Below the pieces are notes generated by a model. The model was not told the origin of the DNA and did no database searches. It saw only the letters and a program-made list of their open reading frames with translations. Both the position numbers and the translations under genes were made by a program. A stretch of 64,000 nucleotides of DNA from Amphiscolops sp. MND2022 (taxonomy: Eukaryota): contig OZ076409.1 of NCBI GenBank assembly GCA_964187785.1, positions 53,322,001 through 53,386,000 on the forward strand, read 5' to 3'. Shown here in pieces: positions 3,590-61,488 of this stretch. Positions within the stretch are counted from its first letter, which is position 1, and each line of letters opens with the position of its first letter.

Positions 3590-4456
3590 GGCATCAAAAT
3601 CGTATGGCTGGGATGTGAGAAACATAGCCAAAATTAGCCCAAAAATGGCCAAAAAACAGCCATTTTTCGACTTTTTTCGATTTTCTCAAAAACTGTCCAT
3701 ACGATTCGAACGAATTTTCTACAGTTATTCTACACCATATTAGAGTCCTATATGTGCAATGGCATCAAAATCGTATGGCTGGGATGTGAGAAACATTGCC
3801 AAAATTAGCCCAAAAATGGCCAAAAAACAGCCATTTTTCGACTTTTTTCGCTTTTCTCAAAAACTGTCCATACGATTCGAACGAAATTTTCTACAGTTAT
3901 TCTACACCATATTAGAGTCCTATATGTGCAATGGCATCAAAATCGTATGGCTGGGATGTGAGAAACATAGCCAAAATTAGCCCAAAAATGGCCAAAAAAC
4001 AGCCATTTTTCGACTTTTTTCGCTTTTCTCAAAAACTGTCCATACGATTCGAACGAAATTTTCTACAGTTATTCAACACCATATTAGAGTCCTATATGTG
4101 CAATGGCATCAAAATCGTATGGCTGGGATGTGAGAAACATAGCCAAAATTAGCCCAAAAATGGCCAAAAAACAGCCATTTTTCGACTTTTTCGATTTTCT
4201 CAAAAACTGTCCATACGATTCGAACGAAATTTTCTACAGTTATTCTACACCATATTAGAGTCCTATATGTGCAATGGCATCAAAATCGTATGGCTGGTAT
4301 GTGAGAAACATAGCCAAAATTAGCCCAAAAATGGCCAAAAAACAGTCATTTTTCGATTTTTTCGATTTTTTCACAAACTGTTCATACGATTCGAACGAAA
4401 GCGAGTCAGAAGGAAAAAGACTTCAGCCGACTCCTTTACCGCATATGCGGCTCTGG
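3590..4456 (+). repeat. Tandem array of ~4.7 x 171-172-bp units ending in a Helentron/Helitron-like 3' terminus
   Basis: Units begin GGCATCAAAATCGTATGGCTGG about every 172 bp, mirrored by near-identical ORFs at 3759, 3931 and 4274. The array ends GCCGACT-CCTTTA-CCGCATATGCGG (palindrome)-CTCTGG-TT. Confidence 0.9.
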
Positions 4457-22890: not shown

Positions 22891-24289
22891 TTGCGAAACT
22901 CATTGTTGCGAATCAGAATAAAACCGGAAGTGAGATGAACACATTTTAAGAAGATTTTTCAATATTAAACAAGACGCCCGCTACGCACCGGGGTATTTTC
23001 CGCCCTTTTCGCCTTCACCAACCAAGCCATAGCTATTTTGTGAAGGGGGAATAGGTTCTAAAGAATAAGATCTAAAATTTAGTTATTTTAGATCTTATTC
23101 GCTTTAGAACTTATTCCCGTCCTGAAATTTTAGATCTTATTCCCGTTAGATCTTATTGCTTTTTGACTTTAGATTTTATTCCCCACTCTAAGATATTCAG
23201 TTACTTGACTGTTTTCTATTTTAGCTACTAAAATAGTCAAGTAACTAAAAAAATAGTCAAGTAACTAAGTAAGGTTGGGATGAGATTTGGCAGAATTTGG
23301 AAAAAAAACGCATCATAGATCATGATTTTCCTCCCCCAAATTTATTTGTGGCGTCGGAAAATAAAAAAGATATTGTCTTTTGAAATTACGTGAAATGTTT
23401 CATTGGAAACTCAATGGAGAGCAAATTAAATGCTAAAACAATATTATCCAGAAACGTGTGAGGGGTTGGAAAAAAAATCCAACTTCCCTGATCCCTTACC
23501 CCTTGAGCAGTCACAATTCAAGCAAAATTATTGAGAAATCCGGGGTGAAAGTGTCCACGAAGCAAACGAACAATCCTCTGGTAATTCTCTTTTCCTAAAA
23601 ATGAATGGCCAGTTAATCTCAACTCCAGCTCGAAGTATTTTCAAATGATTATACGGTAATACGAAACACAAAAGTTTTGTTTATAATAATAACTCTAAAT
23701 GAAAATATAAATATCATTTGATTTTGGTGTGTAACTGTCGGAGTTTTTGATTGTCCGAATAATTTGGTTCGGTATTTGACACCGTATAACATGGTCAAGC
23801 AACACAGACATTAAATTACCTTATATTTCTAAACGATGTATCTTACTTTCACTTGAGAACAAAATAGTATAGTCAACACTAGCTCTAGAGTGAAAACTGC
23901 TCTGATATCAGAACCAAAATTGTTTCTTTATCGCTAAACAATTTGGCCCCTACGTTGAAGGGTCTGTTACCTGATAATCTACTGACGTTTCACCGCAATT
24001 ATTCCATTGTAGCATTGAAAACCCGAAAATTGTAGCATTTTCGACTGATCTATCTCTGACTGAACAAAAGATTCATGTTCGATCAAGAAATGAGAAAGAT
24101 ATTTTATATCGGAGACAGTGAGAGAAAGTAAGTTCAGGAGTTTTTGAAAACTCGAAACTTTACAAATATACTATCTGCTATGATGGCACGTTGGTTCAGT
24201 TGAACCTTTAATCTTGAATCTTGAGTCTGAAAAATGCGCTTCCACTTCGAAGACTTCAAAAAAAAACAAATTTTGAATTTTTCTTTAGC

Positions 24290-24589
24290 TTCTTTACATG
24301 AAGTTGCTAAGTGGGATGTGTGCTGCTTTTTATAGTTGGTTACTTTTGGTGGTGATGGTATTAACAACTTAGTAAAAAGCGGCTAAGAGACAGGCTAGGT
24401 AGCTAACTTTATTACAACTAGTTCGAGGTGGTAGAAGTAGAACAAAAGGGAAGTCAACCAAATACTGATTATTAGTTTTCTCTCTCTGAGGGAGTACAGA
24501 CTTACAGTCATTCAATAATAAATAAATGTACATTCTAGAACATTCTATAAACATCTAAATACTATTGGGTTTTAATGTAGGTCAGTACA
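24290..24589 (-). repeat. Putative 3' LTR remnant (U3) of the giant Gypsy element
   Basis: Starts TGTACTGACC right after a purine-rich tract and has TATAAAAAG at ~24326-24334 on the - strand. No matching 5' copy found. Confidence 0.45.
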
Positions 24590-25631
24590 TCCATCCCGGT
24601 TTTTAAATGAAACAAAATTTTAAAGTAGCATCATTAATAAAAATGAAGTAAAGAGAAAAAATTTTGTTTAAATGTTCTTAGCGTTTCAGCTAGTTAACAT
24701 TTTTCATTTGATGGATGATTGGCATAGGTCTCTCTAAGAGTGGTGTAAGTTCGACTCATTGGTATACCTCGAATTGTCAAAATTTTGATTGACACCTCGT
24801 AGGTGCGACTACAGTTCAAAAAGCGTCAAAGTGTTCTTTTTCACTATGCTTTCGTCGGCTTGTTTTTTGAACTGGTAGTTGCTCAATTTTTTGCCTCTGT
24901 TGAAGTCGTTGAATGAACTTCGCATTGAACAAACGTGAGCAAACATCATACGAGTTAAAGGTCAAAGAGTCATTGAAAAAATTTTGATGATAAGATTTTT
25001 TCATTGAGTGTGAAAACTGTCTGAAAAGATATCAGGTTGTGATCAACTTTGGCGGGTTTGTCATGTAACAAATGTTGAAAACTTTGAAAATTTGGGTCTG
25101 TCATTATTCGAATCTGATTTGAACAATGTGCTTGATCTATTTTTGAACTTGTTTTGTTGAAATGTTGAAAAGATTTGTGGTTAACATATTGAATTTTGGA
25201 TAGGATAGCACCGAAAAATAATAATTATTAATTATTCTTTAAAAATAAAGCAAATAAATATCGGTAAGGGTGTAAAGTAAATGATTTTGAGGGCAAATAA
25301 ATATGGGTGGGAAAGAATTTTGAAATAAATACATTGCAAGTGTTTTCGGTATGAGTTTGAACCTTTTGAATATTATCATGCACAATGTTTTTTCTTTGAG
25401 TTTCTTTTATTATTGATTATTAATCATCTTCTTCGGCTGAGAACTGGATAGCTGAAGATTGAAGATTGGAAGATGGATGAAGATGGGTCAGCTGTTGGGC
25501 GGCTGTGAAGTTGTGAAGAATGGGTGCTGAGTTGTGACCAGCAATCGTTGTGGATGTTTGGATTGGAAGATGGGTTGTCATCTGAAGAGTGCTGTTGATG
25601 TCATTTGTTGATATCGAAAAGAGACGTAAGT

Positions 25632-26207
25632 TTACGTTTTGTATGGGGAATTATCATCTAGAAATGTTTCTGGAGGGTCCTTTTGACATCCTTCATCTGT
25701 ATCATCGTTATTGTCTGAAGGCCAATAGGAATCTAGGTTTTGTTTTTCCATTTCAGAACGCATTCTGTTAGATAGATTTCGTAATAAATGTTTGGGCTTG
25801 ATGGTAGTATGCTCTGTTTGGGTAGTGGCGTCTCGTTGGGTCGAATATGTATCAGGATGCTTATGAATTTGAAGATATTGGTCAAAGTTTATTCGTGTAA
25901 TTTGGAAGATTTGAAACATATTGAGCAAAATCATTCTTGTAAGATGAGGATCTGCCTTTTGATTTGTTTTGAGCTGTGCATTTAATGTTGTTAAAGGCTT
26001 TTTCAGAATCAGGGATCGCAATCGAGCTGAAGGAATTGAGAGAAGAGGAGCAATTGGGCAGTCGATGTCACTAGAATGGAGTGTCGTCATACTGAAGAAT
26101 ATGATAAAGTTTAATGAAAATTGTAAAGGATTTCGTTGGAATTCTTTTTGGATGGACGGCTTGAGAGGAGGAAGAAATGTTGATGAAGCAGTTGTGACGG
26201 TATTCAC
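25632..26207 (-). pseudogene. Retroelement accessory ORF (191 aa, Pro/Ser/Thr-rich, acidic end), function unknown
   Basis: Same strand and A/C-rich composition as the element. Begins exactly at a CTAAT...TTTTAG|G splice-acceptor-like site. Confidence 0.5.
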
Positions 26208-26612
26208 CTAAAATAGATTAGTTTGTTTACAATAAAGTTCTTTTTAAAATAGAGTTTCATAGTTGACATTTTTTCGATGTAGTTTGTTATGTTATAACTT
26301 TTTAATTTTAAGAATTAAGTTGATGTATTTTGGAAGTCTTTTGAAGGGTATTTAAATATCTTTCGTATAAGTGCTTATTTGTTAAAATCGGTCCGTTTAA
26401 AAGAGGAGCAAATGAGGAATTTTGTTAAAAATTTTTACATCGCGATTGAAATTTTTATATTATTTTGTTTTAAAAGAGTATTTTAATATCAAACAGGTAA
26501 TATAATCATGCAAAGCAGGCATATGCGTGTAGACTCGATTAATTTTGAGAGGTTGTTAAGAGATTAGGTGATAAGTGTTAACAATTTCAAATTATTATCC
26601 CATAATTACCAG

Positions 26613-27904
26613 TTAAGATCGGTGCATTTTTTCAATTGTATAGTTGAATTCGTCCAAAGATGTGCGAATACACAAAGCTGATTGGCTAATTCTTGTCGTA
26701 TCAAATACGATATTTTGTATTATGCTTCGAGCTTGTTCAAGAGTATTTACGATTTCGGCGATTGTTATAAGAATATCTCGGTTCGGATGATGATAAGGTT
26801 TTATGATGTTCAAAATTTCTGTATATTTCTGTATTTCGTCCGTTGGGCGAAAACTTTGTGGTTGAGGAATGTCATTTTTGGTTTTCTTTGGCGATTCTTG
26901 TTTTGTCTTTTTGTGTTCTTTAGTATTTCCATTTGTAAGAAGTGAAAGTAAATGAGAAATAATGAAAATTAATTCATTATTTGAATATCCTTTTTTGGTC
27001 ATTGCGTAAAAATAGGATTTTTCACAGTCTCCCAGAGGTTATATATGAGAGAGGCTATATGTTGAAGTGGAGGAAGAGGATCAGATATATTTTGAGGTAT
27101 ATCTTCCTGTAGTAGCGAATCGTCGTTCAGAATGAGGTACAATGATTGGTCTTTTTGGGTTATCATTTTGAAGGAAAAGAAAACTTTGTTTAAGCGGATC
27201 ATAATTTCTAAGTTTTCCTTTTGTTTTGGTATGATCTATCAAATATTCTGAGTTGAAAGTGAATGGCGACGTATATTTGGAGTTGAAGAATATATAATTA
27301 TCGGGCTCTTTGTATTGAAGAAACTTCTGATAAGTCATGTGATGAGCCTTTTTGATTTGGTATGGCAAAAAATTTGCGTCATTTTCTTCGGTTCGAAGAT
27401 CATATGGAGATGGTCTGAGGAAGTTGTATTGGAGTGAGAAAATTTTCACTTTTTTGTTGAAACCACCAAAATATATGGGGTAATCAATTTTGAAGCGATT
27501 GAAGTATGATAATCATTTTTAAATTCTCTGATGATGAATTTGTATTTTGTTGGAATCATGTATAACGAGGTTAAATGAGATTGAAAGGTAAATTGTTTTG
27601 ATGAGAGAATAGGAACTAATTCACAGTCTCTATCTTCATCTTGTTTAACTGGTTTTATGAAAGGAGGGCAAGCGCCAGATTCCATAAAAGGTTTGTCTGC
27701 AGTTATATCTGGATACTTTCTTTTTTGAGATCTTGCGTTAACATGATCTACTTGTTCAATAGGAATAGTTTCCATGGGATCTTGAGAATTTGAAGATGAA
27801 TTATCATCTTCGTTAACATTTTGTTGAATAGTTATATTCAAAGGGGATGCAAGCAATTCAGAAGGGTTAGAATTAACTACATTAATTTTGGGCAAGGATT
27901 CCAT
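26613..27904 (-). pseudogene. Retroelement accessory ORF, probably one ~430-aa frame broken by frameshifts, function unknown
   Basis: Four consecutive overlapping - strand ORFs (27446-27904, 27081-27449, 26999-27202, 26613-27002), the first starting at an ATG in AATAATGG context. Confidence 0.55.
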
Positions 27905-28401
27905 TATTTAGACTTGCGTGTTTTTGTAGAGCTAAAATAATGATTATAAAGTTTGATTATAATGTTTCTAATAATGAGGAAAAATTATGTTATTTCTTTT
28001 TTGTCCATTAAATTGTTTGTTAAAAATGAAGTTTAAATTGTACTTACACTATGAATATAACTGAGTCAATTGTGGGTTGAAAACATCAACAATCACAGTG
28101 GCATCTATTCCAGGAATAGAAAATTCTGTAATTTCGGTCTTTTAGATGGACTGAAGATCCAGTTGAAGTCTTCCGATTGAGTGTTGAGTTGTGATGGGCA
28201 AGTGAATTTTCAGTTGAGTTGAAAGGAGAGACTTGTCCAAGTGAGAATTTGGGTTTGAATGAAAGTTAAGCTGAGGAAAATTTTGTTGATGATTTTTTGA
28301 ACTTTTTCTGAGGTTAATTTGTTTTTTTTTGGTTATTGCAACTTTTTGTGAGGTTAATTTGTTTATTTGGTTATTGCTTTTTAGCTAAGAGGGATTAAAT
28401 T

Positions 28402-30969
28402 TTATAAAGACTTTAGCAGGACTTTCGGTTTAGCTCTTACATTTGATAATATTGGGTCATAGTCCTGTGAGTTAATATCGTTGACATTAGTTGGGTGTAA
28501 CTTTTGCGGTGATTGAAATGTTGAATTTTTACTGGAATATTTAGAAGGTAAATACGGGGAGTCATTATCAGAGTATCTTCTCAGTTTGTTGTGTAATTCT
28601 TTTTCCGGCAATAGGATATTATCATTTTCACTTGTTGTGATTTTGTGTTTAGTATATATCCGTTTTCGTTTTCCTGTATTGTTCAAATCGGTTATCATTT
28701 CCGATGTAACTATTTTAAAAAATCCATGGGCTATTGAACTCAAAATGGAAATGTTGCTTTGGAGATTATATTGTATGCTAATTGTTCTGTAGAATTTGAG
28801 TAAAAATGTTAAAACTTCTCTAATGAAAAGAAATGTTGAAAAGTAAATTCCACCTTGTGTTAAAACATAACATGGATATCCAAAGAAATTAATGAATGCT
28901 TGACTGAACCAGTCAGGGTTGAAAAGTGGTAAGAGGCTTAACAGTGGTCATGTACTCCAATCCTTAAATGATTATAAGGATTATGTCTTGAGTAGGAATG
29001 TTTATCATTATGCACTGTGATGAAATCATAGCTTAATGATTTTCCAAGTAATTGAAGAGTTTGAAGAGTTGTATCTGAGTTTTTAGCGAATAATACTCTG
29101 TTCCAGAATCGATCTAATTCTGCATTTGAGTTTATACCGGCATCTTGGGTGGTAAATGTATTAGGAGTGATTGTTGTTTTAATTTGGGTAGGTTTAAACA
29201 TTTGTGGTGCTTCTCGTTTGAGTGGTTCTGGTGTTAACACATAAAAATCTCCGTCGTTAGAATCTGGGTCTAATTCGATTATATTTTGTGGGTTATTTCC
29301 ACATTCAATTGGTGTTGCATAGTTAAAAGTTTGTCTTGTTATAGGATCAACATACATTATAGTTTCTCTGTAGTGTATGGGAATTCTATCAAAGCATTTA
29401 TCTGCCTAGTATAGTGGTGATATAAAATGAGGGCAATCATACAGCCATGTTGTAGATCCTTCAACGTAGAGAAAGTTACTGCGATTTCCAGTTAAAAGAA
29501 AACCGGCTATTTGGGGATTCTTAACTGACATAGCTAAGATTGTTAACAATTGAGTTCTTTCCAGTTCACATATTGTATGAAGGGTGTTTAGTTCTTGTAC
29601 TGTCATGGATTTAAATACATGATTTATTGTGAAATCAATTTTTGTATTAATGTGGCATCATAGTCTAAAGTGGCGAAATTGTTTGATACATTCAATGCAG
29701 GGAATATATACCTTTTATTTGAGTCATCATTTTTTATGTTTCCACTAATTGTTTGATCAATTATTGAGTGTGGTTTTGGTTGTCCTGTGTTCATATCAAA
29801 ACCATCTAAGTATGTAACAAAGATGTCATCATATTGTGTTGAGAATAATGGTTCAGGTTTTCCACAAAAGGTTTGTGCAATTGGGTATATTTCAAATCGA
29901 GAAAGGCTTGGATTGCTTACTTTTGATTGTGGTGTTTTCACATTAGGATATCTTGTTCCTTGTATTCCTTCGGTTTGAAGTTTTTGTGTGATGTTTGAAG
30001 TTTCAATGAAGGTATCGGTTTCTATCCAATATCTATCTTTAATTCGTGTCATTCTACCAATGAATTCTTGAAGTTGAAATATGAGGCAAAATTTTTCATC
30101 AAACCATGTTAATGTATATGGAGTTTTTGTTGTTGGTTTACATAATCCGTCTGATTGATAGCACGGTAATACGTGTCCGTCATGTATTAATTGACTGTTT
30201 TTATCATCATAGTCTATTGCGGTGTTAACAATTCTAAGTTTCCAACTTTGTCGGGTAATTAAATGTTCTCGGTCGGCTCGGCATCTGGAGTATGTGTTTT
30301 GTGTAACATTAACTATCCAGTCGGGATAATTTTCATCCAATACGAAAGTTCCAATATGCCATGTGTTTAATTTTTTTGCTCTAAATGGTGTTTGAATTCG
30401 TTCAATTTTGTTTTGATAGTTACTATCGTCGAACAATGAGAAAGAGCTTTGTATATTGTAATTGTTTAGTTCTTCGCTATCAGTCGCGTTGAAGTAACTT
30501 ATCATGTTTTTGCAATCAAAAGGGTCTTATATTTTTGGAAGTTCTAATGTGTTCTGTCCCCATTGTAAACGATCATATCGTCTACTGGATGTGAATGTTT
30601 GTGAACACCAGACCTTTTCAGTCTTTATATATGCTTCGCATTTAAAGGCTTTTATGCTTTTGGCTTTTGCTCTAACGTAAACTGTTGCTTGGGTTTTTGT
30701 GTGTTGTATATCTGAGGGTGCTTGTTTACATGGTTCAACATTTAATGAACTGAATTGTCTTAAGTTGTTTTGTTTTGCACAATCATAATGGGAAACCATT
30801 AAGTTTAAAATGTTGGGGTCTTGGTCTGAAATATGATTTTCTGAATTGGTTGTGTCAACTTTAGGAACAGTTGAAGGGTGAACTAAAGAGTGAACTATGT
30901 GGATATATTTATGTATTTAACAACATATATTATGTATACTAGGTATAGGTTAAAGGTTATATGATCCAT
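28402..30969 (-). pseudogene. env: env-like class III viral fusion glycoprotein (chuvirus G-like), frameshifted
   Basis: ATG at 30969 with a hydrophobic leader. Motifs HYDC..C..A..C..C, CELERTQLLTILAM..NPQIAGFLL..G..FLYVEG...LYDCP and YVDPITR......IEC. Hydrophobic anchor at ~28800-28900 and a basic cytoplasmic tail. Confidence 0.8.
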
Positions 30970-30983
30970 GGTTAAAATATTGG

Positions 30984-32917
30984 TTAAAATATTGTTCTAT
31001 AATTAAGTCCTGAATAGGGATTAAAGAAGTGTTTATGTCCTGTTCTAATCTCAAGTAATTTTGCGTCACAAAGGTAAGAAATGGATGTGACTATGAATGG
31101 TGATGTGGTTGTTTTGTGTGCTACTCTTGTTGAAAGAGAGAATGGATGAGGTCCTAACGAGTTGAATGTGACTTCTACTTCAAATTTTAATGCGAGTTGT
31201 TGTTCTTGTAATCTTCGTAATTCTCTTTGTTTTCTTTGAGTTGATAGTGAACTATTGTTTATAAATCTTGCAGGTAAAACCGTGTATCGAGGATCTTCGT
31301 TAAGCGTACGAACAATTTTTGAATTAACACGGATGGGATATTCGTGAGGGTTTGGTGTTGGAGGTCTTGAGAAATCTTCTAAAAAATATTCAGGTAATTG
31401 TATAGAAGAGTTTGATGCTATTGAACTAGGTGAGTAAACTCGTGAAAAATTAGCTGCGCTATCTGATATAGTTACTGGGTCTTCAGAAAGAAGAGAAGCT
31501 GTTTCAAATCCTGATGTGATTTGAAATGGTAGTGATAAAGAAGATGGTATAGTGGGTTGAGATGAGGAAAGAGAAGAAGTGTCTACTCTGGGTTGGGCGT
31601 GCTGTCTAAGTAGTCTTGAGTTTGTACTTGAACTAGTTAAATATTGTAATTCTAGAAATTTTCTTTGTTGTTGAGATCGAAGGTTATAATTATGTCTTGG
31701 TACTCTAGTACTGGCAGTTGAGTCAGAATCTTTATCTTTGTGATATAAATCTGTTAAAGAAGAGGTAGTAGTTGAATGTACACGTTCTAATTCAAGTTTG
31801 GGATATATTTGAGAAAATGTGAATGAACTTAGTTCAGATGGTGAAGGAATTGGGTGTTGTTGTAATTTCTTCACTGGTGCCTTCAATGAAGGTTCGGGTA
31901 AGAATGGTATTGGAGTATAACTTGCTGATGGTAAGTTAAGGTCTTGTGGTAATGTAGGTAAAGGAGTTTTTCTTTTTGTTTTAGTTGCAGTTGGTACTTT
32001 ATGTGGACAAGAATTTATGTGTTGCAGAACTGAGCTGGGGTCAGGGATTTGAACGGAACGAGTGGTAGTAATTGGTGGAAGATGAGGTCTATTTAAAATA
32101 TTTGAAGTATCTTGTGTAGTTGGTGTTGTAAGTGTTTCATCATTAGAGTCAGTACTGGTGAACTTGTTTCTGAAAATACTAAATTTTGTGAAGTAGGTTG
32201 TGATTGAGATGTTATTACTAGTGTTTGAGTTTGGGTTATAGGTGTATTGGTGGGTGTTGCTGGTACTCTATCAGGAGTGTATGGAGCGGATGGACTGGGG
32301 TTTGAGGATGAGGAATCCAGTATGTCTGTATCTGAGTTTAAATATGCTGTATATTCAGGTAAAATTTGGAGTGAGTGTGTTGAACTAGAAGATGAACTAT
32401 TTGTGGTTGATGATGGTGAATGAATATGTCTATCAATTTTGAAATCTTTTGTGTTATGGTAGTTTGCTTCAAATTGTAAGTTAGTTAGTTTTATATCAAC
32501 TAGAGTTTCTTTCTTTTTTTATCACTTGTGAAATATTTTTTCATTCAATTTCACATTAAGTTTCAAACTTTCTTTCTTTCTTTCAAATTGTCTTTCTTTC
32601 TTTATTTCAGCAGGATTTTTGAGAAAGCGAAATTATATCCTTTGCACCAAGGAAAAGTCGAAAGTCTTTTATTGTTCTTGGGCGGAAATTGTATCTATTA
32701 AAGGAGTGTCTTCGGGGGTTAATAAATTTATCATAGTCATGAATGTCTGATTGGTTATCTGATTTGGTATTTTGAGAATCTTGTTCCCTTTGTTGGTACG
32801 GAAATGAAGAATATTGGTTAAATGATTCTGGTTGTAAATCAATCGTGAATGGTATATCCGTTTCTTTATTAGATGTTGTGGAAGGAAATTGTTCTTCGTC
32901 TGTAAATATGCCTTCAT
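30984..32917 (-). pseudogene. Ser/Thr/Pro-rich low-complexity region downstream of integrase
   Basis: 300-aa ORF 30984-31886 containing PRHNYNLRSQ and S/P-rich runs, with similar composition continuing to ~32900. Confidence 0.55.
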
Positions 32918-32949
32918 CAGAGTTAATTATTTGATCGTTTATATTTGAA

Positions 32950-35900
32950 TGACAGTCATTAAATAAATGAGGGTTATATTGTTGTAGAAAAGGGAAGATA
33001 ACTGGTTCTTTTAGATGATAAGGAATTAAATGATTTCTATGTATGTGCGATGTATAACCATCTTGATTAACAATTTCATGTTATGTCGGAGATTTTGTTA
33101 ATAATTTTGAATGGGCCAATTCTAAGAGGTTTTAATTTATCGGAAAAATGAACATGGAGAAAATTTCTCTTTAGTACAAATGTACCAATATCTAAGGGTC
33201 TTGGATTGTGGTATGTTTTGTTAAAATAAGCATAAGAATTAATCTTTCTTTTTGTGTTTTCATATACCGTATGGTATATCTGTATCATAGCAGTTTCAGT
33301 AGCTAAGATCCATTGTGGAATTGGTTTAGATAAAATTTTATGAAAGAAAGGGTTTAGATTTGATTTGTCATAGTGTGTATGAAGTGGAAATTCTTGACAA
33401 AATTGAGAAGTACAATTTCTATATGTATCTCTTTGGAGATTGAGTTCAAAGTTGATTGGAATTCTGGGTATAGTATGGAATACTATTTCATATGGAAATA
33501 AGTTTAATTCAGAGAGTAGTTGTGAATTATGTGCATAAGCATACATATGAACTTGAGTTGACCAATTTTCTGGAGTGTTATGTAAGAAAAGTCTGAGATG
33601 AGTTCCAAGATTTCTGTTTTGATTTTCAACTAAACCATTAGTCCATGGTGCATAAGGAGTTCTTGGTTAATGTCTAATTCCCATTGTGGTACAAAGGTAT
33701 GCGAATTTGGAATTAATGTAATCTGTTCCACGGTCGGTAACTAGGTATACAGGAGGTCCAAATTTTGTTATCCAACGATGAAGTAAGGAGTTAACAGCGT
33801 TCTGAGCAATATTTTGTTTTTGAGGTACTGTTACTACAAAGTGACTAAAAGCGTCTACTATAACATGAATGTATGAGTTTTGATTTGATGGTGGGTTTAT
33901 AGGTCCTTTTGTATCCCTCGATATTCGGTAGTTGAAATATGAAGCATTTTCTGAAAATGTTTGTATGGATGCAGTTTGTATTTTTTGGTTAATATGTTTA
34001 TTTTGTTGACATTCAATACAATCATGGATGAATATTGACATCCATTTATTCAAATATGGTATGAAGTAAAATTGGTTAAAAGCTTTGATGGACATTTTTA
34101 TTCCTGAGTGTCCGTGAGCATGAAGTTTGTTACAAGCTGCATGGAAGAGTTCAAATGGTAAACATATTTTGTCTTTTTGATTCGGATTTGAATCGTGAAG
34201 ATTAGGATAATCTATGTGAATAATTTTTGTATCATGGTTAATATACAATTGGTTGAAAATTTTGTAATATACTAATAAGAAAGAATTTCCTGCAATTGTT
34301 GCGTCTATTTGTAAGGGTCTTTCATTATTAAGTACCCATTGGTAAACTTTTTGTAAAACAGTGTCTTGTTGTTGTTGAGTTTTTATTGTTTCAATTGTTG
34401 TTTGTGTATCTTCTGGTAGGAACAACTAATTAAAGTATCTTTTGTATTTGAAGAAAGATGGATCAAAAATTGGAACTTGTTGATTACAATAATCGGATTT
34501 GGTAAGATATTGTATAGCAAGTGTGTGTTCTTTTAATGTGTCTGCGTTTTGATGTTGGATATTATTTGATTGAGTTAGTTCATCGTCATCACTGAGAATG
34601 TCAGTATCATTGGGAATTTTCGATTGTTGTAAGAGAGATTTTGTTTGGTTTTTTGTAGGTTTTTTATATTTTGATTCAAATGGAACGATAGATTGAAAAG
34701 AGAAAGAATCTAAAGGTTTTATGTGAATATCTTCTCCTTTGTTATTTATACGGATAGAAAATTGGTCGTCTCCGTAGTCAGCAAGAATAGGATGACAATC
34801 ATTCTTTTGATTATAATTGATTTCTTCATGTTTTACTAAATATTGTACTGGTTTGAGTTGATTATATTTCATGATAGAGAAATCTATTTGAGGTGGTAAT
34901 TGTTTGTGTCGTAATTGATGTACTTGTAATTGTTCTTTTGTAAAAGTTCGTGAAAGCATCTCTGCTACAGTTAAGTTTTTTCCAGGGGTATGAATGATTT
35001 TCAGTTTGGAGAAGTTGGTTAATTGCATTTGTGCTCTATAGAATCTAGGACTAAGATTTCCTTTCTTTGCAAAATAATGTAGTAGAGGTTTGTGATCTGT
35101 AAATATGTATATGGGATAAGGAGATCCAATGATCAAAAATTCATATATTTGTAATGCGTAAACTATTGCGAGAAGTTCTCTGTCTAAAGTTTAAAGTTTT
35201 TGTTCTTGTGTGTTAAGAATTCTGGAGTTATAAAAAATTACTTTCATTTTATTTTCTTCGTTCATTTGGAATAAGACTGCGCCTAAACCAACTAACGAAG
35301 CGTCTACTGTTATGAAAAATGGATGCGTTGTATTGGGTATGGTTAATTCAGTGCCTGCTGTCATTGCATTTTTTACATTTTGAAATATTTTTTCTAATTC
35401 AGGTGTCCATTCGAATTTAACATCATTATGTAGTAATGTATACAATGGTTCAAGGTTTATATGAAGTTTTTCAATGAATTTTGAATAGAAGTTAACACTG
35501 CCAAGAAATTGCATAACATCTTTCTTTTCTTTTGGTGATGGAATTCTTTTAATGGCGTCACTTTTGGATGGAATTGGTTTGATTGTGTTATTACTAATTT
35601 CGTGTCCAAGGAATTTTACTTTGAGTAACATGTAGAAAGATTTTTCGGGTGCGAGTTTGAGGTTTTTTCGAGATGCTATTTTATGTAATTCTTTTATAGG
35701 TTCAAACATTTCTTGTTTTTCATTTGAGAGTAGTAAAATATCATCTATATACACTAACGCAGAACGTTTGTCTATAAGTGACCTAAAGAAAGTTGACATT
35801 TGTTTTGTGAAAAAGTTTGGAAGTCCCTTTAATCCGTAAAATCCACGGATTAAGGCGTATAGTTTGTCACCGGATGAAAATCCTGTAAGCTTGATTGTTT

Positions 35901-37400
35901 CTTCATCTAATGGTGTATGAGCAAAGGCATACATTAAATCAATGGTTGATTTATATTTTTTTTGGCTCTAGCTAATTGAGGAGCTAAAAATTCAATAGGC
36001 CAAGATTCAAGTTCTTGGTTGGTGTTTGAGTTTAAATGTCTTGCGTCTAAGACAACTTTTATTGCGTCTCCTTTGGGGATAATAATTAAAGGGTTTAAAA
36101 ATGTTGTTCCAATTGTGTGTTTTTCATCTGAGGTGGAACCAGTTTGTTTTATTATATTGTATTTTTCAAGTTCTAGTAAAAGTTTATTTAGTCCATCTCT
36201 GTAGTGAATTGGTACTTTAGAAGGTCTTTGCGTTTGAAGTTTACATTTATCTTTTATTCTAATTCGAAAGGGAGTAGAAATTTTTCCTACGTCGTTCTTA
36301 TGTTTGGCGTAACAATTTCGATTATCAATCAAAATATTGCAGAGGTTTACATATTCTGTATCGGTTAGATCTGAGTATTCAAAGTTAAGCTTTTTTATGA
36401 ATTGTTGGTTTTCTGTAGAATATGGTAAAGGAGGAAAATCTTTTTGAATTTTATCGGAGGGTCGAAGATTTCCAGTAACAGAAGGTATAGGAAGTTTAAG
36501 TGTTTTGTCGTTGATTTCTATTTTGTTAATTTCTAATAGGGATTGTGGTGTTACCCTAGTACATAAGTTCATATCTGCATATGGATTTTGTTTAATTGGA
36601 GTTGTGGTATCAGGATGATACGCATGTATTACAGAGTGAATAAGTGAATTTACATCATTAACTCTACAGTGAGGAGGAGTTGTTTGAGTAATAGGGATTT
36701 CTATGTATCCAATGATTCCTCGTGGTAATGTAGCTGGGTAAGATGTAAAGTTTTGAATTATGGTTGCACAAGAGTCTTTGCTTTTTTCATTGACTATCAT
36801 ATCCAAGAAATGAAAGATATCTTTAAATTTTTGTAAGAAATATGTTTATGGGTTTGTTGGATAAATTTTTGTAATATCTTCAAGTTCAAAATGTAGATTT
36901 GAATAGTTTTTAATTGGGAAATGTAGGGTTTTTCCTGACCTGGGTTTAAAGTGAATTGGTTCTTTACATTTACTAGTATAAATGTAAGAAATATATGGGT
37001 AATCTTTTTCTGTAAATGTGGAAAATGTTGTTTTTGTTGAAAGATTTGGATGTTGTTCTATGTAAGCCATAATATTTTGTTGAAAATCAATATTTTGGAT
37101 GTGTTTTTTGAAAAAGGGTGTCCCACGAATGTTGTATTTGATATTGGCTACGGCGAAATCGATATTGAAGGATCGCGTTTGATGGTTTACTTCAGTAAAA
37201 CAGGTTATCGAAATATAGTGTATTATTGGTACTTCAGTTTGGTTTGCAACTGTAAGAGTTTTGGCTCTTTTGTTTTCAAGATTGTTTGGAACATTGATGT
37301 TTAATTGTTTGGAAATCACATGAAATGTTGGTAAATTCAAAACAGGTATGGATGCTCCAGTATCTAAGAGGAAAAAGAGTTTCTAATTTTGAAGGTAATA
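32950..37400 (-). pseudogene. pol: pol: protease, reverse transcriptase, RNase H, integrase
   Basis: LDTGAS (~37356-37367), GLKGLP and YIDD (~35740-35751), DAS..GLGAVL and TDHKPL, H..GH.G...C..CQ zinc finger, DTKGP / DAFS / TDRG catalytic core, and GPF motif. Confidence 0.95.
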
Positions 37401-37559: not shown

Positions 37560-40500
37560 GTTGTCGATTTCGTGAGGGTGTTCTAGATCGTGATCTTAAA
37601 TCTCTAGGTCTTGAAGGAGATCTATATGGATAATTATATCGTTTAAAGGAGTTTCCTTGTGATTGAGAACGAGATCTGTATCTTGAGCGGGAGTTATATC
37701 TGTAATTTGAGTTATTTCTGTATGGAGATCTATATAGAGATCTAGATGGAGTTCTTCGTTGATAATAATTATCAAATCGAGATCTATATGGACTTCGAGA
37801 TCGATTGTATTATCTTTGTCGAGAATTTGATCTATTGTTGTTTTGCGAATTTTCTCTACTATTGCTACGATGTCTATCATTATTTCTGTATCTATCGTTA
37901 TAGTAATTTTGATTATATTTGTTACGATTGTTATCTGAGGAGTAAATATTGGTATTGTCATTTCGAGTTTCTTGTGAGTTATCAGGTTTACTGCGAAAAT
38001 ATTGTACAAAAGATTGTTGAGGAGTTCGTGATCTTTGGTTCTTGTATTTTTGGTATTCATCATCACGTTGTTTTTGATAACAGTTTGAAATACTATGATT
38101 ATTTTTGTGACAATAGGAACAATATTTTTTAAGCTGGTTTGCTTTTGTTATTTGGGTCTCCAGATTGAGTAACCATTATATGATCTTCGTGTTCAAATTC
38201 TGTTTTGTTTGTATCATCTTCAAGCGATACTTTGTTTATTTCTATAGCTAAGTCGTTAGTTCTAATTTTTTCATTAGCAATTTCTTCAGAATCGACATGT
38301 CTAGCAAGTGTGTGAAATGGTATAGAAGGTTCACGTAATGTCGATACATGTTTAACTTGTCGTTTATGAGCAAAATTTTTTAGTTTTTTGGGTAATCCTT
38401 TTGTAAAGATTTCAATATTTTTGAGGTTTATGGTAGCTGCATTTTCATTGCACAATCCCTTTTTAACTAATTGTTGTACTCTAAGGGCGAAATGGAGTAC
38501 TGTTTCATGATCTTTTTTCATGAGTGACATAGCTTCTACTTGGGCGTAGTAAGCTGTTTTTTGAGAAGCAAATTGTTTTTTGAATAATTGTACGAAGGAG
38601 TTCCATCGTTGTTTATATGATATATGAAGGTTAGTATACCAATCGAGAGCTGTTCCAGTTAAAGAACATTGTATGTAAGCCATGCGTCTATTATGCCAGG
38701 ATTTGTATTTTATAGGATTATTCTAAGGTTCTTCACCTATGGCGAAGGTTAATCTAGCTTCGACTTGTTGTAGATATTCTTCTGGTGTATAAGAATGGTC
38801 TAAACTATCAAAAGGTTTCATAGGTTCTGATATTGAAGCGGACATGTTCATAAAAGTATCTTGTGGCATTGGTAAGTATTGGAGTGGAGGAGCTACTTGT
38901 TGTGTGAGTTGAGGAGGTATATGTTGAGTTGTATTTTGTGGTAATGGATTTGGATTTGGATTAGGATTTGGATTAGGATTTGGATACATTTGATACAAAG
39001 GATCAGTAGGTATATGTGTAAGTGGAGGGTTTTGAAGTCTTCTTTGAGAAGATTGTATGGTATGAGAACAAGAAGTTGAAGGATACGAAGTTCCTTGATT
39101 TTGAGAATATATATTACTCTGTGAAGTACTGGTTTGTGATAATTGTATGAAAGGGTTTTGTGTTAATGAATTCGTAATAAATTGAGAGTGATTTTGGTTG
39201 ATATTTGCATTAGTATTTGTATTTGATGGAGGATAAAAGTTATAATTGAATGGATCGTAATATTGATTGGAAATTTGTGGATTATCATTACAATTATTGT
39301 TTGAAGAAATTGATCTATCTGAGCGGAAAGCAGAAGGAATTGATGGAGGATCAAATCTAGGTCGAATAATGTATCTTGTAGAATCAGGAATAGTTCTTGT
39401 TGGAGATGCAACGTTAACAGAAGTCTTCTGAACATGAGATGTGGTTAGAGTATCTTCATGTAAGGTGTTATGAGTTTCGTCGTGTGTTATTTCATCCGTG
39501 TATGGAAGGTTGAATGTTATTTTGCGGTTTAGAGATGTATCTAAGTGAGATTGAGGATTATGTGTATTTTGTCTTTGATTTACAACTCTAGTTGGAACTC
39601 TAAAAGATTGAGTGTGTGTTGATGTTGATGTTCCGGCTTGTGATGCATTATGTGTTGAAATTGTAGATTCTTGAGTAGTAAACTCATTTGCATTGTTTTC
39701 AATGATCTGATTATCATCATTATAGTTTTCATTTTCATTTTGTTGTAGGAGTGTATTTTCATCATTGGTATTATCATCTTCAGTATAGTTATTAGTGTTA
39801 AAATTTGAGTTTTGTTGAACTTGAGAATTTTGTTCATAGTGATAAGGTCTATTGTCTGCAAATAGATCATTTTCTGTAATTAATAGAGGATCGGAACGTA
39901 TGTAATCTAAAGTTTGTTTTGTAATTAGTTGTTGTTTGTGGAAATAAGGATGTTCATTTTGTTCACTTATGATGAATGGTAAACATTCGTCAGCTGTAAA
40001 ATGATTTGGAAATGCTGTAAAAGCAGGCTGATCTTGTTGTGACCATAATAGTTGATAATTGAATCCGAAGTATTTTCTGAGGAATAGAGATAATACTTTG
40101 ATCTGAGGAATTGTTTGTTCATTTAATGTTAAGTCTTTGAAATAATGGTAGAGGAAATTTTGTATTCGTAATATATCAGTTTGTAACCAATGATGAGGAT
40201 TGTCTTCAGGATTAACTAATCTTTCAATAAATTCTACTTCGAAATTGTTTATATATCGTTCAAGTTCGTCGAGTGCATTTGGACTAAATTTTGGAGTTTC
40301 AAGTGCTAGGTTGTGCTCTTTCACATTGTTCAAAAAAGCGTGAAAAACTTGTTTAATAGGAACGTGGAGGTTTATTGGATTTGATGTTCTTCTGTATATA
40401 TGAGATGAGTTAGGTCTTTGTTGAGGAAAGGAGATTTGAAAAGCTGGGTATTCTGTAGTGATGGTTAGAAATTGTATCTAATATAGAAGAGGTATGTGTC

Positions 40501-40679: not shown

Positions 40680-43600
40680 TTTTAGATATTATCTTTTATC
40701 ACTGTAAGCTTTTTTTCAAAGAGAATACTAAATAGAAATAACACACAAAACGTGTATGTTGTAATGAGCACTACTGTGGTAACTTTTTTTATCACATGTT
40801 ATAATATGAAGGTTAAAATGTTGAAAGTAATTTTTTATATAGATCCTATTAAGTTGGAGCTCTTGGGTAATGCCTTTGTTGATTTATGATGAAGAAAAAA
40901 AATTGTTGATATCGTTCAATTAATCTTTCAAAATCGTCTGATGTAGGGTTTTGAAGTGAGCTAATTAGAGGAATGTAAAAATTTAAAGAGTGAACTGTTT
41001 GGTTGTATATGTTAGAGTTCATATTAATTGTGTTCTAACAAGAATTTGAAGTTATTTGGGATGTTAATAGTTTTGGATAGAGAAGAAAGAAGCGGATGCA
41101 ATAGGATCTGTATTCAACCTCAAAGGTTTGCTAACAGAAACTAAGTGTGATTTTAAGTCTGGATCACTTTAAAGTGTCTAACATAAGGTTACTGACACGT
41201 CCAGAAAAGCTAAGGTTGTTTTAATTTTAAGTGGGTTGTGTGTTTTAGGACTATGGGAGTGGAGCTCTGAACAATTAACGTCCACTTTCCAAAGTCTGAT
41301 CAATACTGATCAAGATCAAAGTTTGATCTTTGTCTCTTTTACTTTTACTTTTACTTCCTAAGAATTTTGAAGATTCGAACGTAGTTCGGTGTCCTCTCGA
41401 TTCTCCTTAAGGACGTTTACACTTAACTAAGGTTTTTAGTCAGCCTTAGAATCAGATTGAGCTGGTGAAGCTGTCTGATTGTCTAAGTCTTATGGGAGGG
41501 GATAGGAATTGTGGGTGCCTGAAAGTAGAAAACTACTTTTACAGTGTCTGTGTTAGTTACATGCCTTACTTTAGTTTCATGTTTTAGACGTAAAAGAACG
41601 GATGATTGTTTTTTTACAGATTCAGTTAGAAAAAAATGGAAAACAGTCGTAGTTATCACAGACTCACACATTTTGATTGTTGGTCACTTTGAAAGTGTAT
41701 CCGAGTCAAAAATCGTACCAATACAATATGTAAAAAATTCAACTTCCGTCTAGGTGTGCAAAGTGGAAATTGGTCAAAGTGTGTAATTTTATAAAGTGTA
41801 AGTTAGTCACTAGCAGCTTTTTAATCACCATGCGTAACGCCAAATGACATGGTGTAACGAGAAAACATGTAACGTTTTAATTTAATTCCTACAGCCTTTC
41901 TATTGGCTTGCTTCCTGGCAAGATACGATAAAGACCGGAAAATTGTCAGCAATTATTTTCAACCCAATTTTTTTGCGAAATAGACGTTTGTTCGAAAATA
42001 TTTTTTCAAAATTCATCTTGAAAAGAAACAAGTTAAACAATGGTTTGATGCCAAAATCCACGCTAACAGGCTATTTCGTGAAAGTCATCATTTTAAGGAA
42101 AAAACGAACAATGACGAAAGCTAAAGTAGGACCATTCAAGTTGGAAAATGGTTTTTCCTAACTGAAAGAAGTCATAAAATCAAGAACACTTTTGAGAAAG
42201 AAATGTTTGTCAGAAAAGTTGCTTACAGTTTCAATTACCAAACAGGTGACCTTTTATGCTCTGAAACAATTTTCTCTTATCTGAAACTAATAAACAACCC
42301 TCTAGTTAGGTCAGACATTATATCTTCGATTACATCTTTCCCTCAAAAACGGAAACATTTTCTTACAAAGTGATTGGAGGAAGCTGCAAAATTGGTTCAT
42401 CGTCCGAGACGAGCGCCCATCGCCACAGGTTCAATTTGCCTCCAGTGCAAAGTACGGTTGCAATACGTCTCGTGGGGTCGTGAGGAGGTACGGTACCACA
42501 CCAGTGGATTACTTACCAAACGGTCTTAGTTTGTGACTGCCTGCTATGAGTAACAGGAATCTTTCGGACACTCTAAGGATCACCGCTCAAATAGCTTCGA
42601 TCAACAGGGTCAAGGATAATGAAAATTTTCAATTCCAGGGTGAAAGTTAGCATAAGTTATTAATGCCAAAAGTAGCCCTCAAGCTAGAAAATACAGCAAT
42701 AAACAGTGATAATCCGTACATTCAGATGTTGAAACGGCAGACTACACAACTACAAGCTATAGCTCTAAGTACCAAACAAAAATATTCAGGCAAAAAGACT
42801 CATTCTGTGGTTTTCGGTACTACAGGTAACATTTTGTTAGAATACATCAAACCCGTAGGTTTAGCACCTGTAAACCGAGTCTCTTAGAGTTTCTATCAGT
42901 TCTCAGCTCCTGTTGGGATCTCTCGGTCTCTCGCTCTCACTTGGTCTGTTTTCGGCTTCATTATACATGCAAAATGGTGATGCAAAACAAACCCAATGCC
43001 ACGTCAAACGTCGGATTAGAACACAAATTCCTGCCACAATTTCAATTACATCATTGACTGTATATTAGAGGGTAACGTTACACCTGCGGCAACCACTATG
43101 CCGTGTAGAAACTACTTCCGTTTAGACAACAAAGAAATCTGAGAGCAATCTGTTTCAAGCAAACTCACTGGCTTCCAATACGAACCTGTCCTGAAATGAT
43201 GATAAATGAACAACTGCGTCATTATAATTATAGAAGCAAAGTTCGTTGAATTAGTTGCAGAAACGATAAAATCTTCAACCAAATGAATTCGAAAAAAATC
43301 CTGTTTAACAAGTAATGGAAATAGCGTCGCAATTAGGAAATTCAAAAAATCTTCCAGAGCAATTTGTAATCGTTCAAATTTTCAGGTGACAACTCTCAAC
43401 TTTGCCGTGATTTTTGTTGGTTTTAGAAAATTAGTACGGAAACGTCACGATTCCTGAACAGTTGGTCCTCGAATCTATGGTTTCAAACTGACTGGTCCGA
43501 AACAAAAGGTCATCAAAATAACAAATCATGTTCTGTGTTTTTGGCTATAATTTACAATGTGACTTTCTCCAGCAAGCTTTAGTTTTTGTTTTCTATTTTA

Positions 43601-48600: not shown

Positions 48601-51600
48601 AGAAGACGTGAAAGAGATTTTTAGTCATTGAAATCATCAAAAAAATTTGGGACTTTTCGACTATATGAAAACAAAATTCTATTCCAGATGGTCAACCCTC
48701 ATTGTTTTTGTAATTGTGTGAAGAAAGCAAAAATAGTCTAAAGGGGAATCTTTCAGATACCTTCAAGGAAAAAAGTTGAAATTAGTAAAGCTTTGAAACA
48801 ATCTGATTTCTTTTGAGAGAGAACTTGAATTAACTAAGTTGAGTAAAAATCCAACTAGATCCGGGATGGAATATCAGACACAAATTCGCATTCAAGCATT
48901 ATAATAATATATCTGTCTGATGAAAATACGGTTCGATTTCTGGATAGAAATAAGCTGGAGAACGTCTCCGGGTCTCGTGGCTTGGGTTTGATGCTACAGA
49001 AGTTGAATGTTGAAACTAAGAACCACTTCCTGATCTATTTGGTTTTCTTTTAGTAGAGCGGATATTTCTTGTTAAGACGATCGATTCGAATTTCAGGTTA
49101 ATGGGTGCTGGCCATGATGTTGATGTCACATTCATTGATTGGTGTGAAACAATTTGAAATTGGTGTGAAAAACATTTGAAACAATGTGATACATTATGTC
49201 GCAATTCCGCATGTCACTTACAAAAAAACTTATGCGATAGGTCCGTAAACGATATTGTATAGTACTTTTAAAAAAACACAGCCGAAAACTTCTGCCTTGA
49301 CTAAGATTCGAGCTACCGAACTAACACTCGCCACGGCGCAAAAAAACGCCTCGATCCGAATTATTGACGTTAAATTTAGTGCATCGGCGCTTCATGAAAT
49401 AAAATGCCACAATTATAGTGACTTTCCGTCGTTTTTTTTTCATCCGGTGGAAGTGACCATTTCATACCGATTGCCAAATTCTTACGAACCTCTCACAGAA
49501 ATATTTGACTTAAAAGGAATACAAAGGGCTCCATGGTCGGGTTTTTCTGGCATTATGACATTTTTGTTTGTGTTTTTCTCAATAAGGAAACGAATTTCGA
49601 GCACGAATCATACTTAGTTTAAAAATATTTTTTCAAACAAAAGGTACCTCTTTTGGATTTTTAGACACTGTGCACTTTTTTGGCAAAAAATTTTATTTCA
49701 TGAATTTCATAAAAAAGTTCTGGACTTAGTTTTTTTTCTGCTTTTTCTGCTGGGTTTTCTCTTGTTTCGGTTTGCTCTTGTTTCTGGTTAGAATGTAAGC
49801 AAAATACCTTTATGACGGGTTACATTAGAGAATCTATCAGGTACAATGTCTGGCTCGAATTGAACATTTTCGGGAAGAGGTATTTCCACTGTTGGAAATT
49901 ATGGAAAAAAATGCATCAAAATTATCCCTCGGAAGATTGTCGACATTTGACGAGAGGTTTTCGATCAGCTTGAGGATCTCTCTGAAGAGTTTTTCCGTTC
50001 CTTTCAATCTTTTAAAAGAGTCTAATTTTATTTCAATTGTATTGTCTGCGGAATTTTTTTCAGTGATTTTTCGGTTCCCCGTATACATTTTAAATAAACG
50101 TCGCTTCGACATTTGTTGTGGGTTTTCTTTGACATTTCGTCTGATGAAAACGATAAAGTTCTTGGAGATATTCAATCGGATTGATTTTTCTCCGAAAACT
50201 GTTGAACTTTAACTTTGAGTCGGGTACTTTTCATTATCACTTGAGAACAATGAAACCTAATTCAGTTCCGCGTCAGGTATTAAACCTTGGGGCTAGACGC
50301 GCGGGGAAGATCGCGCACGTATACTTCACACCTTATTCAGTCCGTCGTCATGACGGTCTTTCTAGAAAGACGGTCTTTCTAGGATAATAAATCAAATTCA
50401 GACACGCTTACCCATCACTCAAGCTTTCAATTTGATCACACTTCCAAGAAAAATGGAACTTCAACTTCCGGCTTGACTCTTCAGTGCGCGTCTCCTCCCG
50501 TTCAATTCATGTCTTTCAGTGACGACGAGGATAGAGTCGGCACTGAAGTACATCAACCAATCTAACTGATCCGAGAAAAAATACAATTGATGAAAACAAT
50601 TCGACAAAGTAATTAAAAGATACACAAAATCAATATTAATATACCTTCTAAAATGATTATTTTAACTGTTTAAAACGTTAATATTTTTTACAGGAGGTTT
50701 GAGTATGTACCAGGTTGGGAAATTACCATCCAAATCCTAAGACCCTTAGTCGTAAAGAGAGAGAGAAAAAAAACACTGTATAATTGTATAGGGATAGCTG
50801 ATGCCAGTATACAATAAGTGTAGATTGATTTATGCTGAAGCATAAATGATTTTTTCAAGTTTTACAGGGCGATAAATCAGGTGAAGCGGAAATCACGCCA
50901 AGTATGAGATGTATGGATAGGCATACGACTACTTTCCAAAGTTAGATGCTTTCTTAGACGACTTTTGAATGTGTGTAGACTTATACTAGTGTCTCTCAAG
51001 TACAACGGTAGTGAGTTCCACTTCGAAGAAGAATGATGAAAGAAAGAACTGAAGAGAGATACATGACTTCCCACGTATATTATCTGATTAGTGCGATTGT
51101 TCCACCTAAAAATTGCCGTAGGTTATTTTAAAGTGCTCTGGAAGGCTTTTTTTAGTATTTTTGAGATATTGGAACAGAAAAATTAGAGATTTCAACTCGA
51201 TAAGTTGTTACCCTGTAAGCCAATTTCCAGCCAGTCTAGACCGAGTAATGGTTGCGTATTTTCATTTTCAGTAACCAGGATTGGTAATGTCTTTTTGCAT
51301 TTCTCCGTCTTCACTTCCACTGTTGCTTCGCCTTTGAATCTGATTGGGTTTTTATTTACGTCTACGAAGCATTTTGTGGTTTTATGCATTTCCAGTGAGT
51401 TGATAATTGGAGGTATTATCGTGACGGGAGATCCTGTGTCGATAATGAATTCTATTGGTTGGCCTTGGACCAAAAGGATCGCTTTATAAAAGTCAACTCG
51501 GTTGATACCGTTGACTAGTTGAATATGGTCTATTTCTGGCCATGATTCGGTTTCGCTGTCCGATGTTTGCATTTCTTTTATCCGGCTCACGGTTTTGGAT

Positions 51601-61340: not shown

Positions 61341-61488
61341 CTAAGTTTATCGGAAAATTTCAGAGCTCTCTATGAAAATATACAGTAAGTAACTAAGGTT
61401 TCAGTCATTGGTTTGGTACCAATGACTGAAACCTTAGCGACTTAGCATACATTTTTATCGAGAGCTCTGAAGTTTTTCGATTAACTTA
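61341..61488. repeat. Imperfect ~150-bp palindrome / MITE
   Basis: Perfect inner arms CTAAGGTTTCAGTCATTGGT / ACCAATGACTGAAACCTTAG (61393-61437) plus outer TTCAGAGCTCTC / GAGAGCTCTGAA. Confidence 0.75.

What the first reader, a model, noticed from the sequence alone, without database searches (positions are those of the whole stretch)
24816..28300. About 3.5 kb of orphan accessory ORFs between env and the 3' LTR, with canonical splice signals
Seen: sense-strand ORF blocks at 26613-27904 and 25632-26207, plus remnants near 24816-25200 and 28050-28300. On the - strand there is a GTAAGT donor at 28047 paired with a TTTTAG acceptor at 27932 (116-nt intron-like segment). A CTAAT...TTTTAG|GTG acceptor lies exactly at the start of ORF 25632-26207. 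Inference: accessory proteins made from spliced subgenomic RNAs, analogous to foamy/lentiviral regulatory or anti-defence genes. I recognise no known domain.
Basis: partly seen in the sequence, partly recalled or inferred. Interest (0 to 1): 0.7.

Follow-up and report, generated by a model that had tools for sequence, protein, structure and literature searches.

The report
Two orphan genes behind retrotransposon envelope
A very abundant virus-like jumping gene in an animal genome carries, after its envelope gene, two extra protein genes that evolution has clearly preserved and that match nothing known, a layout that recalls complex retroviruses, although their splicing and their jobs are still unproven.

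Summary
The region is the 3' part of a decayed, minus-strand Ty3/gypsy element with a Monjiviricetes-fusion (gB-like) env. Two genes there are real. ORF-A (ATG 27904 to 26613; 430 aa in other copies, one 705-member cluster) has a full-length relative at 35% identity over 272 aa. ORF-B (ATG 26090, not 26207; 158 aa, clusters of 502 and 410) keeps its start and end at 64% identity. In both, substitutions shared between copies are conservative while private ones are not. The 24816-25200 'remnant' fails that test; 28050-28300 has no Met-led frame. Each gene lies behind a TTTTAG site; the two sites share a ~30-nt upstream motif, seem kept in other copies, and are followed by leaders that change frame between copies, so they look like untranslated splice (or trans-splice) acceptors. 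The 28047 donor is plausible, unproven; no RNA data and no LTR pair were found. No known homologue was found. Leads: a conserved LC8/DYNLL-type TQT motif in ORF-B; a weak SH3/Tudor-like barrel in ORF-A. Verdict: selected post-env accessory genes, a new variant of a known element type.

The parts
38132..40477 (-). gag, decayed: Ty3-type capsid (38132-38722) with a long N-terminal extension
   Evidence: PF03732 E 2.6e-7, PF19259 E 1e-4; frames
33076..37382 (-). pol, decayed, order PR-RT-RNase H-integrase
   Evidence: RVT_1, RT_RNaseH, rve, Integrase_H2C2; DTG protease motif seen in the translation; best PDB match Ty3 RT E 3e-26
28402..30916 (-). env, decayed: class III (chuvirus/gB-like) fusion glycoprotein with a C-terminal hydrophobic stretch
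   Evidence: PF24664 Monjiviricetes_fusion in 3 pieces, best E 7e-10
28048..28300 (-). candidate non-coding upstream exon (GC 0.36); no ATG is open to the donor
   Evidence: inference
27932..28047 (-). candidate 116-nt intron: GTAAGT donor (unproven) to TTTTAG acceptor A
   Evidence: sequence; GC 0.18 and position chance 0.022; donor ranks 5 of 445 GT sites with a rough recalled weight matrix; 3 of 3 read-through relatives compatible with the acceptor
26613..27904 (-). ORF-A: 430-aa orphan accessory gene; broken in this copy by three frame switches
26208..26329 (-). AT-rich segment (GC 0.20) ending in acceptor B (TAATC..TATTTTAG); ATTAAA 98 nt upstream of the AG
26091..26207 (-). 117-nt untranslated leader of ORF-B (frame differs between subfamilies)
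25617..26090 (-). ORF-B: 158-aa orphan accessory gene (helical hairpin, TQT motif, basic helix, acidic tail); premature stop at 25632-25634 in this copy
24816..25224 (-). repeat-internal segment, probably non-coding or weakly constrained (no stable frame)

Best explanation
An env-carrying Ty3/gypsy element has two selected accessory genes after env. Each is translated from its own ATG on a sub-genomic RNA whose untranslated 5' part is joined by splicing to the acceptor at 27932 (ORF-A) or 26208 (ORF-B); the simplest form is one upstream donor (28047 behind an internal promoter at the end of env, or a donor near 41.6 kb) used with two alternative acceptors. Most likely jobs: ORF-B is a small, partly disordered regulator, dimerised by host LC8/DYNLL through its TQT motif, with a basic helix and an acidic tail, acting on the element's own transcription or RNA export (as Tas, Rev or CERV do); ORF-A is a folded host-factor binder whose SH3/Tudor-like barrel engages chromatin or silencing proteins. 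SHOWN: element type, two genes, selection, linkage, untranslated leaders, shared motif (about 0.9). INFERRED: splicing at these acceptors (about 0.65), the 28047 donor (about 0.35), LC8 binding (about 0.45), SH3/Tudor-like barrel (about 0.35), the regulatory or anti-silencing role (about 0.5).
Confidence: 0.55

Rival explanations
1. Operon-like processing: the genes are cut from a polycistronic RNA by 3'-end formation plus spliced-leader trans-splicing onto the two TTTTAG sites; the AT-rich segments are outrons or intercistronic spacers and 28047 is not used.
For: Acceptor B has an ATTAAA 98 nt upstream and an AT-rich 122-nt segment but no strong donor nearby (best CTG|GTAATT at 26609); AATAAA at 28367 and 25411 follow env and ORF-B; the motif's short distance to the AG fits a trans-splice site as well (recalled from nematode operons).
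Against: Host unknown, so no evidence that it trans-splices; acceptor A has a properly placed donor (chance 0.022); AATAAA-like words are common in this A-rich strand.
Confidence: 0.13
2. Each gene has its own internal promoter; the shared ~30-nt AT-rich motif is a core promoter or start site, not a splice acceptor.
For: Same conserved motif and untranslated leaders; TATAAT-like words in motif A; internal promoters drive env in some Oikopleura Tor elements (PMC4402516, abstract).
Against: Both motifs end in T-run plus AG, the canonical acceptor; GC steps up right after the AG (0.20 to 0.36), as at intron-exon borders.
Confidence: 0.14
3. The genes are real but structural or trafficking helpers of particle assembly and egress (matrix- or phosphoprotein-like, perhaps acquired with the negative-strand-virus-type env), LC8 serving transport or oligomerisation.
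For: env is Monjiviricetes-fusion-like; rhabdo- and filovirus phosphoproteins bind LC8 (recalled); ORF-B architecture (hairpin, TQT, acidic tail) suits an oligomeric scaffold.
Against: No Pfam or PDB sequence match for either protein; no match at E<=0.001 for the ORF-B model among viral structures (moderate model).
Confidence: 0.13
4. Neutral passengers: captured or chance ORFs amplified with a successful element; splice motifs are AT-rich noise.
For: Most close hits are 76-94% identical recent copies; single motifs occur at chance level.
Against: 35% identity over 272 aa with 2 gaps; conservative shared substitutions absent in control region C; 3-6 times lower frame-loss rate than C.
Confidence: 0.05

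Closest known systems
HSV/gB-type env-carrying Ty3/gypsy elements ('errantiviruses' in the broad sense of PMC13524379; abstract, part 1 of sections 5 and 6, section 14 and term searches read)
   Same: gag-pol-env order, Ty3-like RT, class III chuvirus/gB-like env, many copies in an animal genome
   Different: Two further selected genes after env; about 17 kb; that survey filtered candidate regions at up to 10 kb and its main text has no hit for 'accessory', 'extra ORF', 'fourth ORF' or 'splic'
Foamy virus tas/bet (PMC13220597, passages)
   Same: Two accessory genes 3' of env; internal promoter plus splicing is my preferred model
   Different: Not a retrovirus (Ty3 RT E 3e-26 vs foamy 8e-16); Tas and Bet share one ATG and one pre-mRNA intron, here two separate ATGs; no homology found
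CERV of C. elegans Cer1 (PMC10309623, abstract and sections 6 and 9)
   Same: Lineage-restricted orphan regulator from a spliced mRNA of an invertebrate LTR retrotransposon; needed for genomic RNA export
   Different: CERV shares exons with gag; ORF-A/B lie after env with their own ATGs; sequences not compared
Extra ORFs of LTR retrotransposons (bdelloid ORF3s PMC5408684, abstract and passages; review PMC6431247, passages)
   Same: Additional ORFs downstream of pol, in place of or downstream of env, typically from spliced messages
   Different: Those named are enzymes or env substitutes; here two non-enzymatic orphans coexist with a true env and are traced to 35% identity

Membership tests
env-carrying Ty3/gypsy element (gB type) | gag with Ty3-type capsid | tested here: met
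   PF03732, PF19259
env-carrying Ty3/gypsy element (gB type) | pol order PR-RT-RH-IN with Ty3-like RT | tested here: met
env-carrying Ty3/gypsy element (gB type) | class III fusion env after pol | tested here: met
   PF24664, best E 7e-10, 37.9 bits vs cut-off 27
env-carrying Ty3/gypsy element (gB type) | flanking LTR pair and tRNA primer site | tested here: inconclusive
   no pair found; one marginal 90-100 nt match 24223-24311 vs 41262-41362 (score 49 vs shuffled maximum 47); this copy may be truncated and no other copy's DNA was available
env-carrying Ty3/gypsy element (gB type) | placement by POL phylogeny or GyDB profiles | not testable with these tools
   no reference set held
Foamy-virus-type complex retrovirus (Tas/Bet) | retroviral (Spumaretrovirinae) RT and env | tested here: not met
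   Ty3 RT scores far higher; env is PF24664
Foamy-virus-type complex retrovirus (Tas/Bet) | internal promoter and spliced accessory mRNAs | not testable with these tools
   no RNA run listed
CERV-like export factor | exons shared with gag; H-M-G domains | not tested
   CERV sequence not held; ORF-A/B have their own ATGs
LC8/DYNLL ligand | [D/S]-K-x-[TVI]-Q-[TV]-[DE] motif | tested here: inconclusive
   5 of 6 specified positions met, K(-3) absent; kept in 115 of 130 copies
LC8/DYNLL ligand | motif in a disordered segment beside a possible dimerisation domain | tested here: met
   residues 82-92 pLDDT<50, helices 22-42 and 48-75; motif at 87-93
LC8/DYNLL ligand | measured binding | not testable with these tools
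   bench test needed
Tudor/KOW/chromo SH3-like barrel | small beta-barrel fold | tested here: inconclusive

The most novel reading that the evidence does not exclude
An invertebrate metavirus lineage has independently evolved complex-retrovirus architecture: an internal transcription unit after env that is alternatively spliced (or trans-spliced) to make an LC8-dimerised Rev/Tas-like regulator and a Tudor-like decoy against chromatin or piRNA silencing, both old enough to have diverged to 35% identity and perhaps underlying the family's expansion to over a thousand copies.
Probability: 0.2. Interest if true: 0.78.

Novelty: new variant of a known kind. Interest (0 to 1): 0.52.

Why it matters
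Accessory regulators after env are a hallmark of complex vertebrate retroviruses; among invertebrate Ty3/gypsy elements the worked-out case I read is CERV. Two selected, high-copy, homologue-free genes with their own processing signals in a gB-env element would give a second, independent origin of that design, two new protein families, and direct tests (junction reads, LC8 binding) of how an env-carrying element regulates itself or evades silencing.

Full report
Setting. Strand skew and long frames mark one minus-strand element from about 41.3 kb to 24.5 kb. Pfam gives a Ty3-type capsid, RT, RNase H, integrase and, at 28402-30916, PF24664 Monjiviricetes fusion glycoprotein in three pieces; the RT piece matches Ty3 RT best (E 3e-26; foamy 8e-16). 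All genes are broken by stops and frame switches, so this copy is dead. The host is an animal: two Cys-loop receptor exons with GT-AG borders lie at 59373-59592 and from 60339. No LTR pair was found by repeat search, blastn or sensitive local alignment; the best end-to-end match (24223-24311 vs 41262-41362) scores 49 against a shuffled maximum of 47 in 15 shuffles.

ORF-A. A 143-aa piece found 187 proteins among 228 candidates, 120 listed. Full copies are 430-435 aa, begin at the ATG at 27904 and end at 26613; the largest cluster has 705 members, 12 of 15 listed being 425-435 aa. Mapped on the window the gene switches frame near 27475, 27140 and 27045. A full HMMER scan gave 271 representatives at E<=0.001, down to about 30% identity, none named. 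P0305 (447 aa) aligns at 96/272 identity, 58% positives, 2 gaps. Among 94 distant relatives (of 151 examined) conservation centres on residues about 67-315. One of 7 distant entries shares a contig length with a close copy, hinting that diverged families coexist in one assembly.

ORF-B. The 191-aa frame found 321 proteins among 374, 120 listed. The common form is 158 aa from the ATG at 26090; clusters of 502 and 410 members, 11 of 15 listed being 157-158 aa in each; five copies at 64-68% identity keep start and end. Only 24 of 158 proteins extend upstream, and 16 of these read the leader in a different frame, so 26207-26091 is untranslated. Twelve of 120 ORF-B hits share a contig length with an ORF-A entry, including 10.7 and 19.6 kb contigs, against 0.05 by chance; P0281 is an A-to-B fusion in the same order.

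Selection. With no DNA of other copies I compared natural proteins with one natural copy and split differences into private and shared. ORF-A (175 of 176 copies): private 763, mean BLOSUM -0.58; shared 110, +0.51; p 2e-10; shared changes per column 0.15 in the core vs 0.29 and 0.45 at the ends. ORF-B (156 of 158): private 266, -0.62; shared 43, +0.47; p 2e-5. Region C (67 of 74): private 159, -0.47; shared 22, -0.14; p 0.12. Neutral single-base changes give -0.13 to -0.41. Frame-intact hits at matched length: A 19 of 88, B 91 of 120, C 10 of 37, or 0.0036, 0.0018 and 0.0106 losses per codon. Caveats: clustering collapses intact copies, frameshift noise may lower the private mean, and C has fewer columns and many homopolymers. 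Region C belongs to the repeat (74 hits of 75 candidates) but starts and ends in several frames.

Processing signals. GTAAGT (2 seen, 2.4 expected) and TTTTAG (6 vs 4.8) are not enriched. But TTTTAG lies 27 nt before ATG-A and 117 nt before ATG-B, each at the end of a segment of GC 0.18-0.20. The 32 nt upstream of the two sites are the most alike of all non-overlapping pairs among 38 such sites (rank 2 of 703, rank 1 overlapping), and 1 of 784 outside comparisons ties them; an unanchored test was not significant (23 of 200 shuffles). Proteins that read through the sites by accident suggest they persist: 15 of 16 keep YFR over site B, with 0 of 11 differences there vs 12 of 33 in the flanks for one subfamily pair (my count; p 0.017); all 3 N-extended ORF-A relatives read YFS or ILA at site A, with leaders of about 25, 26 and 44 nt (my count). 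The donor at 28047 has a 2% chance of falling within 210 nt of the acceptor and ranks 5 of 445 by a rough recalled matrix; donors at 41569 and 41667 rank 2 and 6. No ATG upstream is open to the donor, so the upstream exon would be non-coding. No RNA run was listed.

Comparison. The backbone fits the gB-type env-carrying Ty3/gypsy elements of PMC13524379 (abstract, parts of results and methods, term searches; 7 supplements searched for six terms only), whose main text does not mention post-env ORFs. Extra ORFs downstream of env are known in general (PMC6431247, passages; PMC5408684, abstract and passages). Functional analogues are CERV, foamy Tas/Bet and internal promoters of Tor elements (abstract). 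It works like a complex retrovirus in layout but is not one. Two earlier AI notes on single third ORFs in other gypsy elements were leads only.

Verdict. Observation partly confirmed; two real, selected, homologue-free accessory genes with probable untranslated-leader acceptors; splicing and function unproven. New variant of a known kind; interest 0.52.

Noticed in passing
window 30984-33080 (-): About 700 codons of Ser/Thr/Pro-rich reading frame between integrase and env, no Pfam family above cut-off; unusually long linker.
   Followed up: no
window 38723-40477 (-): 584-aa frame upstream of the capsid, with a helical-looking first 200 residues and a (PN)n repeat; no Pfam hit.
   Followed up: no
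window 24223-24311 vs 41262-41362: Marginal direct similarity between the two ends of the element; could be a diverged LTR remnant or chance.
   Followed up: partly
window 51192-52537 (-): Fragment of a second gypsy-type element: gag and aspartic protease.
   Followed up: no
window 59373-59592 and from 60339 (+): Two exons of a host Cys-loop ligand-gated ion channel with GT-AG intron.
   Followed up: partly
window 58495-58682, 58071-58207, 61342-61488: Near-perfect palindromes with 0-5 nt spacers (arms 94, 68, 71 nt).
   Followed up: no
window 3590-4400; 10.3-15.5 kb, 21.8-22.7 kb, 47-48.5 kb: 171-nt tandem array (4.7 copies, 97%) and a dispersed repeat family with GGGGGACCC-type cores in both orientations.
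   Followed up: no
ORF-A C-terminal helices, window 26616-26920: Weak recurring Pfam match to the CEP-1 (p53-family) C-terminal SAM domain in 3 of 81 members (best E 1e-4) and in the window piece (E 0.11).
   Followed up: no
window 28300-28377: 40-nt tandem duplication and an AATAAA at 28367 just after the env stop.
   Followed up: no
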